Source: a virus
Taxonomy: Duplodnaviria; Caudoviricetes
IMG/VR virus record: IMGVR_UViG_2744054987_000003
Location: 32,001-96,000 of that record
DNA: 64,000 nucleotides
Strand: one strand, 5' to 3'
Positions 2,256 through 58,099 of the stretch are shown piece by piece (within the stretch, counting starts at the first letter, position 1; each line of letters starts with the position of its first letter). Under the pieces are notes generated by a model that saw only the letters and a list, made by a program, of their open reading frames with translations, was not told the DNA's origin and searched no databases. Both the position numbers and the translations under genes were made by a program.

Positions 2256-2368
2256 GCTGTCACTTCCTGTTCGGCAAGCCAGCCAGACAATTCGTGACGC
2301 TTAAGAGTGCCATTGGGCATGATGTGCTGGACCTCGATGCCGTCGCGGGTGGCCAGGTCGGAGATCAT
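2252..2368 (-). pseudogene. Displaced original 3' end of the DUF488 gene (38-aa mini-ORF)
   Basis: MISDLATRDGIEVQHIMPNGTLKRHELSGWLAEQEVTA aligns with the DUF488 C-terminus MISDLATRDGVPVYHIWPNGSAKLHELSGWLKQEG. Confidence 0.85.
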
Positions 2369-2943
2369 GCACGCCTCCTGTCCTTGCGACGCATCCGATC
2401 GCGATTGCAAGCGCGACAATCTCTATGACCTGTTTTCCTGATAAAGGTATTGGCCTCATCAAAGAGATGACCGTTTTTGCAGTGCGTCTTAAGCCCATTA
2501 TGTAGCTTGCCTTCAGCCGTCGCTTTTCTACGCCGCTTCTCGTCAAGGCAAGGTTTACATGCCGCCTGTCTCTTCGCTCCAATACGAACGATATTATCCT
2601 CTATCCATAGATGCTTGTTAGCACGACACATACCAGCAAAGTCGTTGCATGATCGTCCCCTGCGGGTGTTCTCTGCCCCTGTCACCTGCTCCAGATGACT
2701 AGGTCGAACACACCCACGATTACGACAGTTGTGATCGGTCTCTAAGTCTCGATCCAGCTCAATACCAAGCAACTCCAGACCCACGCGATGTGCCCAACCA
2801 ACACCCTGACCGTGGCCCCGGTTGTACTTACCGTAGCCGTTGCGCTTGTCGCGGTAGGCAGTCCACTCCCAACACTCATCCGAAACATCCACCTTGGAGA
2901 TAAACCGTTCTGGCCACTCAGCTAGCGCACGGTCATCCAACAC
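2365..2943 (-). mobile_element. Free-standing HNH homing endonuclease
   Basis: CWEW...GYG...AHRV...DHNCRNRGCVRPSHLEQVTGAEN HNH core plus C-terminal Cys/His repeats (THCKNGHLF...RDCRAC); visibly more AT-rich than the flanks. Confidence 0.9.
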
Positions 2944-3442
2944 AACAACCCTCCTGCTTCAACCACCCGGAAAGTTCATGCAATTTGGCGGAGCCATTCG
3001 GCCAAATATGGTAGACAGGAACCCCATCGCGCGTAGCCAGATCAGAGATCATCCTGCGATGGCATCTGAATGGCGCAGGCTCTCCGCACATGATCGCGAC
3101 ATTGTGATGCTTGGACTGTTCGAGGAGCGCCTCGTAGTCGAGTGCAAAGTCCTGGGTGTGGGTGTAAGCCGCGTAGTTGGCGAAGCTCTCCACCTGCCAC
3201 CACTGGTCCTCGGGGATGCGCTCTTTGGGCGGCTTGCGCCGACCGCCGAGATTGGGCCAGTGTGAGTAGGTGACGCCAGCAAGACGAAGCCAGTCCGGCA
3301 TCCGCTCCTGGTTGAACTGAGGACTGCGACGTGAGCCGGGGAAGCTACGGACATCGGCCAGCTCGGCGATGTCGTGTCGCTTCAAGCGTTCGTTGAACTT
3401 CACCCAAGTCTCATAGCCGTGGCCGATGGTGTAGAGAGTCAT
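2933..3442 (-). CDS. DUF488 family protein
   Basis: LYTIGH, LADVRSFPGSRR.PQFN, LGGRR and MCGE...CHRR motifs. Confidence 0.85.
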   Translation of the reverse strand: MTLYTIGHGYETWVKFNERLKRHDIAELADVRSFPGSRRSPQFNQERMPDWLRLAGVTYSHWPNLGGRRKPPKERIPEDQWWQVESFANYAAYTHTQDFALDYEALLEQSKHHNVAIMCGEPAPFRCHRRMISDLATRDGVPVYHIWPNGSAKLHELSGWLKQEGCCVG

Positions 3443-47693: not shown

Positions 47694-48473
47694 CTAGATT
47701 ATCGGCCTTATCTCGCCGCGCTCGATCTCATCGACGGTGCGCCGACGCGCTTTGGGTCGGTAGTCCTCACCAGTGAACTCGAATACCAGCGACTGCTCAG
47801 ATAATTGTGACAACACCTGTGCTCCGTATCCGGTGCTCAGTTCACCCAGTGTGCAGTTGGTGGTCAAGATGGTGGGTCTGCCCTCGGCCACCCGAGTACG
47901 CAGGATCATGTCGAAGGTCGACTGCGGCAGGTTGGTGCTGGTGCGCAGCTCCCGGCCAAGATCGTCGAGCAGCAGCACCTTGCTGTACATGAATTTGTCG
48001 GCGAACCACTCTTTGCGTTCACTGCTGCGCCAAGATGCGGTGAACGCCTCAACGGCATTGGCGAAGGTGGTGGCAAAACAGGTGTAGCCGCGCTTGATCA
48101 ACTCCTTGAGAATCAAGTTGGCGACGAGAGTCTTGCCCAAACCGATGCCGCCGTGGAGCAGCAGTCCGACGCCTCGCGCGATGTAGTCGTCGTGACGTTC
48201 CAAGTATTTCAGCACGTGAGGCAGCAGTGCGGGGTCGCCTTCGTAGTCGGCCCAGTCCAGACGTTGATACGTCACACCGATGCCGGAAGCGGCATAATGC
48301 AAAGCCAGCTGAAGCTGGCGCTGACAGTTGCAGTCGCACTCGTTTCCTTGCCAGCGGTAGGTCTTGGCTCCCCGGCAGGTCGGGCAGACGCCAAGCATCA
48401 GCTCGGGATGGCTTCGATCGATGCGTTCGGCCTCATCGTCATCCAGAAAGGCCGTCTCGATGTTGAAGGTCAC
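47694..48473 (-). CDS. DnaC/IstB-like helicase loader
   Basis: N-terminal Cys cluster, GIGLGKT, LLLDDLG, TILTTN, GEDYR. Confidence 0.9.
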   Translation of the reverse strand: MTFNIETAFLDDDEAERIDRSHPELMLGVCPTCRGAKTYRWQGNECDCNCQRQLQLALHYAASGIGVTYQRLDWADYEGDPALLPHVLKYLERHDDYIARGVGLLLHGGIGLGKTLVANLILKELIKRGYTCFATTFANAVEAFTASWRSSERKEWFADKFMYSKVLLLDDLGRELRTSTNLPQSTFDMILRTRVAEGRPTILTTNCTLGELSTGYGAQVLSQLSEQSLVFEFTGEDYRPKARRRTVDEIERGEIRPII

Positions 48474-49216
48474 ACATCTTCCTTGGTCAGAACGATAACG
48501 GCGTTCTCTAGACAGTCCCTGTTGTCGGCGAGTCCCTGAATGTGCGTGGGTTTGCCGGTGACGTTGTGCCGCAACGCGGTGTAGGCGTGGTGGTAGTGAC
48601 CGTGGTAGAGCAGATCGGGAACAACCGCATCGCAGATGCCGCCCAGCACCATGCGGTGACGTTCTGATGCGTGAATGGCTTCTATGGGGAACAGGCCCGG
48701 TTTCAGGCCGGGGATCTCCACCGCGTCAGGGCAGTCGTGGCTCAGCACGACATCGACGTCGCCAGAACGACAGCAATGACGAACATCGACACTAGACAGC
48801 TCCTCCTCGACGAACCAGTCGAGCATTGGAGTCCGCGACTTCTTGTCAACGCTGACGCCGCCGCCGACACCCATCCAGGTCTTGTTCCACCACTGCCAGC
48901 GATGGCCGCGAGGGACGTGCTGGACGTGCTTGCCCCACCTGTCGCCCGGCACCAAGGCGCTGAACTCCTCGTGGTTGCCGTCGATCCAGTAGAAGCGAAT
49001 GTCGTTACCGTCGACCAGTCGGTCAACGTCGTCCATGAATGTGCCGTCGTCGCCGGTCGGCCAGAAGCCGAAGTCTCCGAGCTGGAAGATGACGTCGACT
49101 CCCTCTGCCACGGCCTTGGCGACCACGCGCTTCAGAAAGCGGTAGTCGCGGTGTGTATCGCCGACAAGCATGAGTTTCTGCGGGTCCGGCCCCATGTCGA
49201 CACGGCATTCAGGCAT
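48470..49216 (-). CDS. Calcineurin-like metallophosphoesterase
   Basis: GDTH, GDFG, GNHE, SHD, GHYH. Confidence 0.9.
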   Translation of the reverse strand: MPECRVDMGPDPQKLMLVGDTHRDYRFLKRVVAKAVAEGVDVIFQLGDFGFWPTGDDGTFMDDVDRLVDGNDIRFYWIDGNHEEFSALVPGDRWGKHVQHVPRGHRWQWWNKTWMGVGGGVSVDKKSRTPMLDWFVEEELSSVDVRHCCRSGDVDVVLSHDCPDAVEIPGLKPGLFPIEAIHASERHRMVLGGICDAVVPDLLYHGHYHHAYTALRHNVTGKPTHIQGLADNRDCLENAVIVLTKEDV

Positions 49217-49250: not shown

Positions 49251-49544
49251 GCACTTTCAACAACTCAAGAAAACACCCAGCCAGTCTTCGGATTCCCCTA
49301 CTCTCCCCGGATCGTGGCCACTCCCCGGTTCCCCTCAAGTACTAAGTCCAACTGTTCTCCTGCTTCACTCGCGGCGGATTTCGCCCTCCACAGCCCTTCG
49401 TTCAGGGATCGCCTGATCTTCGTGCGGCTCGTCGTCCGCTGTCCCGATCAGGTCGTGGTCGTTAACCGTCAGGGGCTGCTTCGCTGGGGTACTTGCACGG
49501 TACCTCGCAGGTCTGGATGCTTTCTTGAGTTGTCAAAGTGCGTT
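49251..49544 (-). ncRNA. Candidate ~295-nt structured non-coding RNA
   Basis: Promoter directly upstream; ~29-bp terminal stem with G-U-compatible mismatches; four further nested stems; no credible ORF. Confidence 0.65.
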
Positions 49545-49550
49545 GACTCC

Positions 49551-49579
49551 AGTATAGCAGAGTGTCTAATGTCTGTCTA
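49551..49579 (-). promoter_or_regulatory. TAGACA-N5-TAGACA-N6-TATACT promoter
   Basis: 17-bp spacing; same architecture as 7670 and 57754. Confidence 0.75.
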
Positions 49580-49826
49580 GTGTCTGCAACTCCTTGATGC
49601 GGTGCAGACCCCATTTGCCGTTCTCCCACTTGACCCAGCAGTACCCCTCGATGACTGCTGGGCCTTCGACTACACCACGCAGGCTGCCTTCCTGTGTGTG
49701 GATGACCGTCGCGCCGTCGATGTCGGTGGTGCCCTCACCCATCGTGGGCTTGCCGTTGATCAACAGCGCCATCCACTGGCCGGTGAAGGCATCGGCGTCA
49801 ACGCAGTCAGGGTGTGTCTTGGCCAT
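49566..49826 (-). CDS. Hypothetical protein (86 aa)
   Basis: ORF track; TGATG coupling. Confidence 0.65.
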   Translation of the reverse strand: MAKTHPDCVDADAFTGQWMALLINGKPTMGEGTTDIDGATVIHTQEGSLRGVVEGPAVIEGYCWVKWENGKWGLHRIKELQTLDRH

Positions 49827-57784: not shown

Positions 57785-57858
57785 TGGCTGGGGTGTCAGG
57801 ACTCGAACCTGAATCGCCCGGACCAAAACCGGGAATCATACCTTTAGACCACGCCCCA
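57785..57858 (-). tRNA. tRNA-Gln (UUG), CCA encoded
   Basis: Anticodon arm CCCGG-TT-TTG-GT-CCGGG; GGTTCGAGTCC; ends GCCA. Confidence 0.93.
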
Positions 57859-57863
57859 GGGAG

Positions 57864-57934
57864 CTGGGATGCAAGGACTCGAACCTCGATTACCGGAACC
57901 AGACTCCGGTGTCTTGCCTTTAGACGACATCCCA
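57864..57934 (-). tRNA. tRNA-Gln (CUG)
   Basis: CCGGA-GT-CTG-GT-TCCGG; GGTTCGAGTCC. Confidence 0.92.
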
Positions 57935-57938
57935 TCGG

Positions 57939-58020
57939 TGCCAGCAGCAGGAGTCGAACCTGCACAGCCGAAGCCACGGAGTTACAGTCCGCTTCCCTCG
58001 CCACATGGGGGTGTGCTGGC
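57939..58020 (-). tRNA. tRNA-Tyr (GUA), long variable arm
   Basis: GCGGA-CT-GTA-AC-TCCGT; GGCTTCGGCT variable arm; GGTTCGACTCC. Confidence 0.88.
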
Positions 58021-58024
58021 TTCG

Positions 58025-58099
58025 TCGGGGTGACAGGATTTGAACCTGCGGCCTTCCGCTCCCAAAGCGGATGCTCTTGCCAAGCTGAGCTACACCCCG
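58025..58099 (-). tRNA. tRNA-Pro (UGG)
   Basis: CGGGGTGTAGCTCAG...TCCGC-TT-TGG-GA-GCGGA...GGTTCAAATCC. Confidence 0.95.

What the first reader, a model, noticed from the sequence alone, without database searches (positions are those of the whole stretch)
49251..49579. Promoter-driven ~295-nt rod-like RNA with a four-GGGG tract, at the head of the replication operon
Seen: the gap between 49216 and 49566 has no credible ORF. A TAGACA-N5-TAGACA-N6-TATACT promoter (49551-49579, minus) predicts a start near 49544, three bases before a ~29-bp terminal stem (49513-49541 pairing with 49251-49280). Two stem mismatches become G-U pairs only on the minus-strand RNA. Four more stems nest inside it: 49489-95/49336-42, 49473-78/49391-96, 49446-52/49412-18, 49436-39/49424-27. 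The 3' side carries GGGG-N4-GGGG-N14-GGGG-N6-GGGG (49295-49334). Established: mycobacterial Ms1/MTS2823 RNA is about 300 nt and binds RNA polymerase; 6S RNAs are end-paired rods. Inference: a phage ncRNA (RNAP decoy, protein sponge or replication RNA) or a structured leader controlling the loader-DnaB-primase operon. I see no sequence match to any family I can recall.
Basis: partly seen in the sequence, partly recalled or inferred. Interest (0 to 1): 0.85.

Follow-up and report, generated by a model that had tools for sequence, protein, structure and literature searches.

The report
Widespread undescribed structured phage RNA
The gene-free gap holds a real, about 290-base folded non-coding RNA that belongs to a large and apparently undescribed family carried by unrelated phages, and whose job is still unknown.

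Summary
The promoter, the ~28-bp terminal stem and the lack of a gene are all there. The RNA is not a simple rod. Comparison with 71 distinct relatives (242-423 nt) gives a Y shape: closing stem P1, arm A and arm B.

- Arm A has P2-P6, a kink-turn-like motif and a nearly invariant 20 + 15-nt internal loop.
- Arm B has P7-P9, and its tip carries an 8-nt self-complementary sequence.
- Covariation is strong: arm A pairs in 88-89% of cells against 60-62% in shuffles; arm B in 95% against 66%.
- The tip palindrome is kept in 36 of 36 aligned sequences although its letters change, so RNA-RNA pairing is likely.

Relatives occur in about 200 Cluster C mycobacteriophages, at least 36 IMG/VR contigs and at least 69 metagenome contigs. 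Among cellular genomes I found one MAG contig only. Each of five whole phage genomes has one copy. Flanking genes are not conserved, and two carriers share only an HNH endonuclease.

Rfam 15 has no match. Function is unknown. My best guess is a stable, self-pairing, trans-acting RNA.

The parts
49551..49579 (-). Sigma-70/SigA-type promoter TAGACA-17-TATACT with an extended -10 TG. Predicted transcription start is near 49544.
   Evidence: 10 of 12 consensus matches; 1 site found against 0.3 expected in shuffles.
49252..49540 (-). Core of the structured RNA (289 nt), from the first to the last base of closing stem P1.
   Evidence: The skeleton of consensus helices scores -77.9 kcal/mol; the MFE constrained to it is -106.8 against -112.5 for the free MFE.
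49513..49540 (-). P1, 5' arm.
   Evidence: A terminal helix at this place was found in 90 of 122 evaluable loci; its sequence differs almost completely between lineages.
49252..49280 (-). P1, 3' arm (G49258 bulged).
49353..49515 (-). Arm A: P2 (49511-07/49363-59), P3 (49502-496/49373-66, A49369 bulged), P4, kink-turn, P5, large internal loop, P6.
   Evidence: Covariance model R1 hit, 127.2 bits, E 3e-30. Covariation.
49473..49488 (-). Kink-turn-like motif, bulged strand: P4 CCC (49488-86), 3-nt bulge AGC (49485-83), G-A (49482-81), then P5 5' strand (49479-73).
   Evidence: The GA is invariant in 28 of 28 aligned sequences. The flanking helices P4 and P5 covary.
49384..49396 (-). Kink-turn-like motif, unbulged strand: P5 3' strand (49396-90), G, G-A (49388-87), P4 GGG (49386-84).
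   Evidence: GA in 24 of 28 aligned sequences.
49453..49472 (-). J5/6: nearly invariant 20-nt strand of the large internal loop (CUGACGGUUAACGACCACGA).
   Evidence: Members found through the other strand's pattern differ from it at 2 positions at most.
49412..49452 (-). P6: hairpin of variable length and sequence. Base pairs 49452-47 with 49417-12.
   Evidence: The distance across it takes 37 distinct values in 71 members, with no multiple-of-3 bias.
49397..49411 (-). J6/5: nearly invariant 15-nt strand of the large internal loop (CGAUCCCUGAACGAA).
49278..49358 (-). Arm B: P7 (49354-50/49286-82), an AGUA/GAA-type internal loop, P8, a purine-rich 8x8 internal loop, P9.
   Evidence: Covariance model R2 hit at the same place in the own genome, 79.7 bits. 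Alignment A5. Covariation.
49307..49328 (-). P9 hairpin: stem CCGG/CCGG (49328-25 with 49310-07), loop GGA-GUGGCCAC-GAU.
   Evidence: The stem pairs in 99.3% of cells, and all 4 pairs show changes on both sides.
49314..49321 (-). Self-complementary 8-mer GUGGCCAC at the tip of P9, the proposed RNA-RNA pairing site.
   Evidence: 144 of 144 cells complementary in 36 sequences, and 3 of 4 position pairs change on both sides. Predicted loop-loop duplex -17.3 kcal/mol.
48470..49216 (-). Downstream gene. Its start codon lies 36 nt after P1, and no terminator lies between. Weak metallophosphoesterase match. It is followed by genes for an IstB/DnaC-like ATPase, a DnaB-like helicase and a Toprim primase.
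49566..49826 (-). Upstream ORF (86 aa, no Pfam family). Its stop codon lies inside the promoter.

Best explanation
**What is shown**

The gap encodes, on the minus strand, a member of a large family of phage non-coding RNAs that I could not find described. The RNA is Y-shaped.

- A long closing stem (P1, about 27 bp) opens into two arms.
- Arm A is an irregular hairpin (P2-P6) with a kink-turn-like bend and a nearly invariant 20 + 15-nt internal loop.
- Arm B (P7-P9) carries purine-rich internal loops and ends in a hairpin whose tip is always self-complementary.
- The RNA gene is single-copy.
- It moves among, or persists in, otherwise unrelated phages.
- It is independent of its neighbouring genes.

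**What is inferred (how it probably works)**

1. In this phage the RNA is transcribed from its own SigA-type promoter as the first part of a longer transcript.
2. The long P1 duplex either serves as a processing stalk for a double-strand RNase (host RNase III) or simply seals both ends. Either way it yields a stable stand-alone RNA.
3. Two molecules pair through the tip palindrome to form a symmetric dimer.
4. The invariant internal loop is the working surface. It binds something common to very different hosts, either a conserved host macromolecule or a small ligand, and so acts in trans.
For: **Structure**
- P1 exists with almost wholly different sequences in different lineages: 90 of 122 evaluable loci, 71 distinct RNAs, median arm 27 nt.
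- Arm A, 28 sequences: 88.1% of cells paired against 62.3% in shuffles; covariation score 0.659 against 0.192 (0 of 500 shuffles as high); slid controls 0.06-0.10; 22 of 28 pairs change on both sides.
- Arm A, 66 distinct model-aligned sequences: 89.0% against 60.1%; score 0.567 against 0.146.
- Arm B, 36 sequences: 95.1% against 66.3%; score 0.632 against 0.164.
- G-U pairs outnumber A-C mismatches 207 to 96 in the helices, which points to RNA on this strand.

**Non-coding**
- No sense frame is open across the element in any of 71 members.
- Distances between conserved anchors fall 26/24/21 over the three residues modulo 3.

**Self-pairing tip**
- All four palindrome position pairs are complementary in 36 of 36 sequences, including the two central, adjacent bases, which cannot pair within one molecule. 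Variants include GUGGCCAC, GUGCGCAC, GCUGCAGC, GGUGCAUC, GUCCGGAC and GCGGCCGC.
- In the two contigs with two tandem copies, both copies carry the same palindrome, and it differs between the contigs.

**Independence from neighbours**
- No neighbouring protein cluster is shared by more than 4 of 71 loci.
- Contexts include portal/capsid, terminase, UvrD and replication genes.
- The own genome (G000) and G002 share one ORF pair only, an HNH endonuclease, yet both carry the RNA at 126-127 bits.

**Phage-specific**
- The 21-mer gave 29 IMG/VR contigs and at least 120 metagenome contigs, but 1 contig in the genomes of 185,579 species.
- R1 hit 1 of 151 genomes of the one phylum sampled, and that one was the MAG itself.

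**Promoter and known families**
- Promoter.
- No Rfam family.
Against: - There are no expression data for this phage.
- No terminator follows P1. The next gene's ribosome-binding site comes within tens of bases in many members, so a cis-acting leader fits too.
- A full sigma-70-like promoter directly upstream was found in only 8 of 70 members. A bare TANNNT was found in 16 of 71, against 5 of 70 and 6 of 69 at control positions. "Own promoter" is therefore not a family rule.
- 32 of 122 evaluable loci did not reach my P1 score.
- Members were collected through exact matches to the internal-loop strands, which inflates their apparent invariance. This is only partly offset and by the BLAST-found Cluster C copies.
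- The shuffle controls ignore relatedness between sequences, and alignment A6 is fitted to the model.
- Dimer formation, RNase III processing and the binding role of the loop are all inference.
- IMG/VR labels the own record a provirus, which sits uneasily with "not in cellular genomes".
Confidence: 0.78

Rival explanations
1. Cis-acting 5' leader. The folded RNA stays attached to the message and controls whatever operon follows it. It could stabilise the mRNA, make RNA polymerase resistant to termination (as put RNA does), or act as a ligand-sensing riboswitch whose pocket is the invariant internal loop.
For: - The RNA is promoter-proximal here, with no terminator after P1.
- In many members a ribosome-binding site and start codon follow P1 within about 10-45 nt on the same strand.
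- A kink-turn next to an invariant internal loop is typical of riboswitch aptamers. This rests on established knowledge and was not tested here.
Against: - Downstream genes are unrelated across the family, unlike those of known riboswitches.
- There is one copy per genome although phages have many operons.
- A conserved self-complementary tip and a roughly 27-bp closing stem have no obvious role in a leader.
- In L025 the element is followed by a tmRNA gene and a marginal tRNA match (28.4 bits against a 29-bit cut-off), not by a protein gene.
- P1 does not overlap the ribosome-binding site.
Confidence: 0.14
2. RNA polymerase decoy of the 6S or Ms1 kind.
For: - The size is similar to Ms1 (recalled, not tested).
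- The two ends are paired.
- It is a phage RNA made from a strong promoter.
Against: - The consensus fold is a three-way junction with two arms, not a rod with a central open-promoter-like bubble.
- cmscan against Rfam found no match to any family.
- Nothing here tests binding to RNA polymerase.
Confidence: 0.04
3. DNA-level element: a MITE or other mobile inverted-repeat element, or a replication origin or primer RNA for the adjacent replication genes.
For: - The element has long terminal inverted repeats.
- It lies 1.6 kb upstream of dnaB in this phage.
- It is shared by unrelated phages.
- RNA-based replication origins are known in Cluster A mycobacteriophages (PMC7157519, passages read).
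Against: - There is a single copy in each of five whole genomes.
- There is no target-site duplication.
- The terminal repeat is conserved as a pairing, not as a sequence, and it contains G-U pairs.
- The internal helices covary, which a DNA repeat would not require.
- In Cluster C phages the RNA lies about 87-102 kb from dnaB.
- BLAST gave no similarity to Cluster A phages.
Confidence: 0.03
4. A small protein-coding gene, as annotated across this region in many Cluster C1 records.
For: - Hypothetical-protein CDS features are annotated over the region in many C1 records, for example Trinitium genes 61 and 62.
- Long stop-free stretches are common in this GC-rich DNA: the median is 0.89 of the element length in some frame.
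Against: - No sense frame is open across the element in any of 71 members. The antisense frames are open in 11 and 15 of 71.
- Insertions and deletions are not multiples of three.
- The frame through the most conserved block stops after 9 to 83 codons, with unrelated endings.
- The annotations differ between near-identical C1 phages: none, one or two CDS.
Confidence: 0.01

Closest known systems
ROOL and GOLLD (large ornate RNAs, often found in phages and prophages)
   Same: Both are large, elaborately folded non-coding RNAs of unknown function carried by phages. Both are sometimes found beside tRNA or tmRNA genes; here that holds in a minority of loci. ROOL and GOLLD form RNA-only homo-oligomers (abstract of PMC12286853 seen in the listing). 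The conserved self-complementary tip here points to self-association as well.
   Different: There is no sequence or structure match (Rfam). This RNA is smaller, at 242-423 nt. It was found almost only in viral and metagenomic contigs, not in bacterial genomes. Self-association is inferred, not shown.
HIV-1 dimerisation initiation site and phi29 pRNA (loop-loop RNA pairing)
   Same: A hairpin tip whose complementarity is kept while its letters change, which implies pairing between molecules. pRNA is also a phage-encoded RNA. These comparisons are recalled, not tested.
   Different: The RNA has no relation in sequence or context to either. pRNA loops are complementary between two different loops, whereas here one loop is a palindrome. 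Some members lie beside portal or terminase genes, but most do not.
6S RNA and mycobacterial Ms1
   Same: Paired 5' and 3' ends, and a size like that of Ms1 (recalled).
   Different: This RNA is a branched Y shape, not a rod with a central bubble. It has no Rfam match. It occurs in phages only.
Bacterial and phage Y RNAs (YrlA)
   Same: A long stem formed by both ends. Cluster C phages encode Ro60.
   Different: YrlA RNAs lie next to the Ro60 gene (PMC4201824, passages read), whereas in Trinitium this RNA is about 107 kb from it. Two of five carrier genomes have no TROVE protein. The stem sequence is not conserved. I saw no tRNA-like domain, and ARAGORN and Rfam gave nothing.
Kink-turn-containing riboswitch aptamers (SAM-I, lysine, c-di-GMP-II, T-box stem I)
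   Same: A C-stem, a 3-nt bulge and tandem G-A/A-G pairs next to a highly conserved internal loop flanked by covarying helices. The comparison itself is recalled.
   Different: There is no match to any of these families (Rfam). No conserved downstream gene class exists. No expression platform is evident.
rRNA precursor processing stalks and phage T7 RNase III sites
   Same: A duplex of about 27 bp formed by sequences flanking a stable RNA inside a longer transcript, conserved in length but not in sequence. The analogy is recalled.
   Different: Cleavage was not tested. The five carrier genomes encode no RNase III of their own.

Membership tests
Any Rfam 15 family | Score at or near the family's gathering threshold in cmscan | tested here: not met
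   The window region, the Cluster C1 copy, the whole window and 7 further member loci gave no hit on the element. The best chance hits had E >= 2.
6S RNA | Unbranched rod with a large central bubble that mimics an open promoter | tested here: not met
   The consensus has a three-way junction above P1 and two separately covarying arms.
6S RNA / Ms1 | Binds RNA polymerase holoenzyme or core | not testable with these tools
   This needs a pull-down experiment.
YrlA / Y RNA | Encoded next to a Ro60 (TROVE) gene, with a conserved Ro-binding stem and a tRNA-like domain | tested here: not met
   TROVE is present in 3 of 5 carrier genomes and lies about 107 kb away in Trinitium. The P1 sequence is not conserved. 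ARAGORN and Rfam gave no tRNA-like call.
tmRNA | tRNA-like acceptor/T-arm domain plus a tag reading frame ending in a degradation signal | tested here: not met
   ARAGORN and Rfam call nothing at the element. The frame that starts A-N-D-H-D in the conserved block ends after 9-83 codons with unrelated endings.
Retron msr/msd RNA | Terminal inverted repeats plus an adjacent reverse transcriptase | tested here: not met
   The terminal repeats are present, but RVT_1 was found in 0 of 5 carrier genomes.
MITE / mobile inverted-repeat element | Several dispersed copies with target-site duplications and conserved terminal repeat sequence | tested here: not met
   One copy in each of 5 genomes. No duplication at the flanks. 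The terminal repeat covaries instead of being conserved.
Riboswitch / cis-regulatory leader | Consistent association with one functional class of downstream genes, and an expression platform | tested here: not met
   Downstream and upstream proteins are unrelated across 71 loci, and contexts are diverse. P1 does not overlap the ribosome-binding site, and no terminator follows. Ligand binding was not tested.
Kink-turn (structural motif, not a family) | Canonical stem, 3-nt bulge, tandem sheared G-A/A-G pairs, non-canonical stem | tested here: met
   The sequence pattern is met. GA on the bulged strand is present in 28 of 28 sequences and GA on the other strand in 24 of 28. The flanking helices P4 and P5 covary. 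The kinked geometry itself was not tested.
ROOL / GOLLD type self-assembling ornate RNAs | RNA-only homo-oligomer formed through intermolecular contacts | tested here: inconclusive
   A self-complementary tip is conserved in 36 of 36 sequences with changing letters, and it changes in concert in tandem copies. No physical test was possible. There is no homology to ROOL or GOLLD.

The most novel reading that the evidence does not exclude
This is a new class of phage RNA that works as a symmetric RNA-only dimer. In phages with two tandem versions it may also form a heterodimer.

Its nearly invariant internal loop would be a pocket for a target common to very different bacteria, such as a core host machine or a metabolite. 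That would let unrelated virulent phages carry the same RNA as a portable host-takeover or counter-defence module that needs no phage protein.

The rare second version keeps the same scaffold and tip but has a different internal loop. That would mean the scaffold can be re-targeted.
Probability: 0.4. Interest if true: 0.9.

Novelty: categorically new. Interest (0 to 1): 0.82.

Why it matters
If this holds, it adds a widespread and complex RNA class to the short list of large structured bacterial or phage RNAs of unknown function. It also comes with a ready laboratory system, because about 200 sequenced Cluster C mycobacteriophages that grow on M. smegmatis carry it.

- **Why it is unusual.** An RNA is conserved far better than any protein between phages that share nothing else. 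Its sequence signature points to RNA-RNA pairing, and its internal loop is almost frozen. Together these suggest a protein-independent function aimed at something universal in the host.
- **Annotation.** The region is annotated as one or two hypothetical proteins in many Cluster C1 records, and that is probably wrong.
- **Structural biology.** The RNA has a size and apparent rigidity that suit cryo-EM.

Tried and rejected
**Ideas tested and dropped**
- G-quadruplex: the window's four GGGG runs are not conserved (1 of 71 members).
- MITE: single copy and no target duplication.
- tmRNA: the conserved block reads A-N-D-H-D, but there is no tRNA-like domain and no consistent tag.
- Y RNA: see the membership test.
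- Retron: no reverse transcriptase.
- Phage-encoded partner proteins: L7Ae in 0 of 5 genomes and RNase III in 0 of 5. No neighbouring protein family is conserved. G000 and G002 share only an HNH endonuclease.
- Cluster A RNA-based origin (PMC7157519, passages read): BLAST gave no similarity. It was not tested with the covariance model.
- Resemblance of arm B to the 23S sarcin-ricin region: this reduces to a common AGUA/GAA internal-loop motif. It is present in either orientation and is not conserved in sequence.
- The statistic "longest palindrome anywhere in arm B" does not discriminate. Shuffles reach 8 nt or more in about 39% of cases, so I used the position-specific test instead.
- P6 tip as an internal control: a palindromic centre occurs in only some compact members.

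**Expression**
- The look-up of sequencing runs with the Cluster C1 copy (L004) listed 3 runs from 2 studies. Two are only guessed to be RNA.
- When laid, their contigs cover 379-639, 366-641 and 327-496. All of these lie inside the element at 311-716.
- The flanks up to position 2334 were uncovered.
- These runs were chosen through this stretch and are contigs. I therefore treat this as no more than a hint, and the uncovered flanks as no evidence.

**Literature**
- Five searches found no description of this RNA. I saw listings and abstracts only, apart from passages of PMC7157519, PMC10690425 and PMC4201824.
- The catalogue of PMC10690425 lists unnamed candidates of 29-151 nt from IMG/VR. Its supplements were closed, so a fragment of this RNA may be among them.
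- Four weak non-mycobacterial rows (Oenococcus 2, Gordonia 1, Pseudomonas 1) were not examined, except that the Pseudomonas row is a 24-nt match inside a portal gene.
Full report
**What is in the window.** On the minus strand, an 86-codon ORF ends at 49566 and the next gene starts at 49216. Between them lie three features.

- A near-consensus promoter, TAGACA-17-TATACT with a TG before the -10, at 49579-49551. It is the only such site in 1.4 kb, against 0.3 expected.
- A 28-pair stem between 49540-49513 and 49280-49252, with one bulge and three G-U pairs.
- No terminator-like site on this strand.

The minus strand folds to -122.2 kcal/mol (z -4.08) and the plus strand to -112.3 (z -2.84). The downstream genes encode a weak metallophosphoesterase match, an IstB/DnaC-like ATPase, a DnaB-like helicase and a Toprim primase.

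**Relatives.**

- *BLAST against isolated phages.* The search matched 203 records, 202 of them Mycobacterium phages and 1 a Mycolicibacterium phage. The matches came in conserved blocks separated by insertions. They are Cluster C1 (Bixzunavirus) phages, which are 98.5-100% identical to each other in this region, plus one C2 phage (Myrnavirus) at 67.5%.
- *Flanking DNA.* The window's flanks have almost no nucleotide match to any phage record.
- *First alignments.* Three-way alignments already showed compensatory changes in the terminal stem and length-variable inner parts.
That contig is 126 kb, belongs to a MAG and is identical at this locus to a viral contig.
- *Members with a variant block.* A search with the other conserved block returned mostly chance hits, but it found 7 further members whose 21-mer differs at one or two positions.

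**Family size and borders.** Of 122 places with enough flanking sequence, 90 have a strong terminal helix at the expected position. These give 71 distinct RNAs of 242-423 nt. The window's RNA is identical to one metagenome contig (L219). The helix arms have a median of 27 nt, with 1742 Watson-Crick pairs, 114 G-U pairs and 66 A-C mismatches. Their sequences are unrelated between lineages.

**Consensus structure.** I derived the structure by eye from the aligned sequences and then tested it. P1 opens into a three-way junction.

*Arm A* (window 49515-49353), from base to tip:

1. P2 (CCUGC/GCAGG).
2. P3, with a conserved bulged A.
3. P4.
4. A kink-turn pattern: CCC, a 3-nt bulge and G-A on one strand; G-A and GGG on the other.
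5. P5.
6. A large internal loop with strands of 20 nt (49472-49453) and 15 nt (49411-49397).
7. The variable hairpin P6.

*Arm B* (49358-49278), from base to tip:

1. P7.
2. An AGUA/GAA-type loop.
3. P8.
4. An 8x8 purine-rich loop.
5. P9, whose loop reads GGA-GUGGCCAC-GAU.

*Tests of the helices.*

| Alignment | Sequences | Cells paired | Shuffled | Covariation score | Shuffled score |
|---|---|---|---|---|---|
| A4, arm A (MAFFT) | 28 | 88.1% | 62.3% | 0.659 | 0.192 |
| A6, arm A (model-aligned) | 66 distinct | 89.0% | 60.1% | 0.567 | 0.146 |
| A5, arm B | 36 | 95.1% | 66.3% | 0.632 | 0.164 |

- For A4, 0 of 500 shuffles reached the observed score, slid controls gave 0.06-0.10, and 22 of 28 pairs change on both sides.
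- A6 is fitted to the model and therefore leans towards the structure.
- The kink-turn G-A is present in 28 of 28 sequences on the bulged strand and in 24 of 28 on the other strand.
- Forced into the consensus helices, the window RNA folds to -106.8 kcal/mol, against -112.5 unconstrained.

**Non-coding.** No sense frame is open across the element in any of 71 members. Antisense frames are open in 11 and 15 of 71. Distances between conserved anchors fall 26/24/21 over the three residues modulo 3. The CDS features drawn over this region differ between near-identical Cluster C1 records, which show none, one or two of them.

**The self-complementary tip.** In the 36 sequences of A5, the eight loop positions form four complementary pairs in all 144 cells. 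The pair types are U-A/G-U/C-G/G-C, then G-C/U-A/C-G, then G-C/C-G. The two central bases are neighbours and the next pair would enclose two bases, so these cannot pair within one molecule.

Members with a longer P9 end in a UGCA-type tetraloop, which is again self-complementary. The G-U variants argue for RNA pairing rather than a DNA palindrome.

Two related contigs carry a second, divergent tandem copy. It has the same scaffold but a different internal loop. Both copies in one contig have GCGGCCGC, and both in the other have GUGCGCAC. I read this as pairing between RNA molecules. The predicted loop-loop duplex for the window is -17.3 kcal/mol. This remains inference.

**Genomic behaviour.**

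- *Copy number.* Models of arm A (R1) and arm B (R2) each find exactly one adjacent hit in the own genome and in four other whole phage genomes.
- *Reach in metagenomes.* R1 finds the arm in 69 of 100 metagenome loci.
- *Cellular genomes.* R1 hit 1 of 151 genomes sampled from the MAG's phylum, and that was the MAG itself.
- *Neighbours.* Neighbouring proteins are not conserved. The largest cluster spans 4 of 71 loci, all close relatives.
- *Contexts.* These include portal-RNA-capsid, terminase-RNA and RNA-UvrD.
- *Relation to Cluster C.* The window phage's DnaB is 44-45% identical to that of Cluster C-type phages, where it lies about 87-102 kb from the RNA.
- *Unrelated carriers.* The own genome and G002 share one ORF pair at E below 1e-5, an HNH endonuclease, yet both carry the RNA.
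- *Candidate partner genes.* TROVE is present in 3 of 5 carrier genomes. L7Ae, RNase III and reverse transcriptase are each present in 0 of 5.

**Transcription.** A full promoter directly upstream of P1 is seen in 8 of 70 members, among them the window and the C1 and C2 types. A bare -10 is enriched about three-fold over control positions. Many members are followed closely by a ribosome-binding site. In one lineage a tmRNA gene follows (46.7 bits against a 47-bit cut-off), with a marginal tRNA match in L025.

The pattern fits a stable RNA cut out of a longer transcript, with the roughly 27-bp P1 as a likely double-strand RNase site or end seal. It does not exclude a leader. Public-run contigs that match the C1 copy lie wholly inside the element. 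Because the runs were selected through this stretch, that is only a hint.

**Comparison with known families.** Rfam 15 gives nothing for eight versions of the RNA or for the whole window. The tests for 6S/Ms1, Y RNA, tmRNA, retron RNA, MITE and riboswitch fail on defining features, as set out in the membership table.

The nearest analogues in kind are the ornate phage-associated RNAs ROOL and GOLLD, which self-assemble (abstract of PMC12286853). Five literature searches found no description of this RNA. An unnamed fragment may sit in the supplementary catalogue of PMC10690425, which I could not open.

**Verdict.** I am about 95% confident that it is a genuine structured RNA family, and about 80% confident that it is undescribed. 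I put RNA-RNA pairing through the tip at about 65% and trans action as a stand-alone RNA at about 60%. Its molecular target is unknown.

Noticed in passing
L181 5204-5415(-) and L199 2151-2363(-): A second, divergent tandem copy sits beside the main copy. It keeps the scaffold and the same tip palindrome as its neighbour, but its large internal loop has different sequences. An exact-pattern scan for its loop found nothing in IMG/VR.
   Followed up: partly
L001 3062-3681 (Trinitium genes 61, 62) and equivalent places in other Cluster C1 records: Hypothetical-protein CDS features are annotated across the RNA, inconsistently between near-identical phages (none, one or two). They are probably mis-annotations. 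The true start of the downstream gene is likely the ATG after the RBS at about L001 3452.
   Followed up: partly
L025 281-609(-), L143 270-595(-), L162 1049-1394(-), L013 10221-10616(-): Phage tmRNA genes lie 0.4-1 kb downstream of the RNA on the same strand. ARAGORN called all four; Rfam was run only on L025 and gave tmRNA at 46.7 bits against a cut-off of 47. The ARAGORN tags of L025, L143 and L162 end in ...PAFAPSFA.
   Followed up: no
L005 about 3210-3300, L014, L017, L018 (C2-type members): An extra hairpin is inserted after P2. Its loop AGUCAUGA contains another palindrome (UCAUGA), so it may be a second self-pairing site in this lineage.
   Followed up: no
window 49459-49467 (minus strand), within J5/6: The invariant block contains GG-[C/U]UAACGA-CC. 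The seven middle bases have the pattern of an anticodon loop (pyrimidine, U, three bases, purine, A). The block's commonest variable position (C or U) falls on the pyrimidine. Only two flanking pairs could form, so this may be coincidence.
   Followed up: no
window 2365-2943(-) and L261 16856-17560(+): An HNH_3 endonuclease is the only protein shared (33% identity over 135 aa) between the window's phage and the otherwise unrelated RNA-carrying phage G002.
   Followed up: partly
window 57785-58099(-): A cluster of four tRNA genes (Gln-UUG, Gln-CUG, Tyr, Pro) lies 8 kb upstream of the RNA. The closest relative of the window RNA (L204) has a tRNA array about 0.8 kb downstream of its copy.
   Followed up: no
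P6 tips of compact members (e.g. L020, L145, L173, L181, L199, L233): The tip of P6 is CUAG, also self-complementary, in a subset of members. The window's P6 tip is not, and the feature is not general.
   Followed up: partly
whole record G000: IMG/VR classes the 147.5-kb record as a provirus (96% complete). Even so, the RNA family is otherwise missing from the cellular genomes I searched. I did not inspect the ends of the record for host DNA.
   Followed up: no
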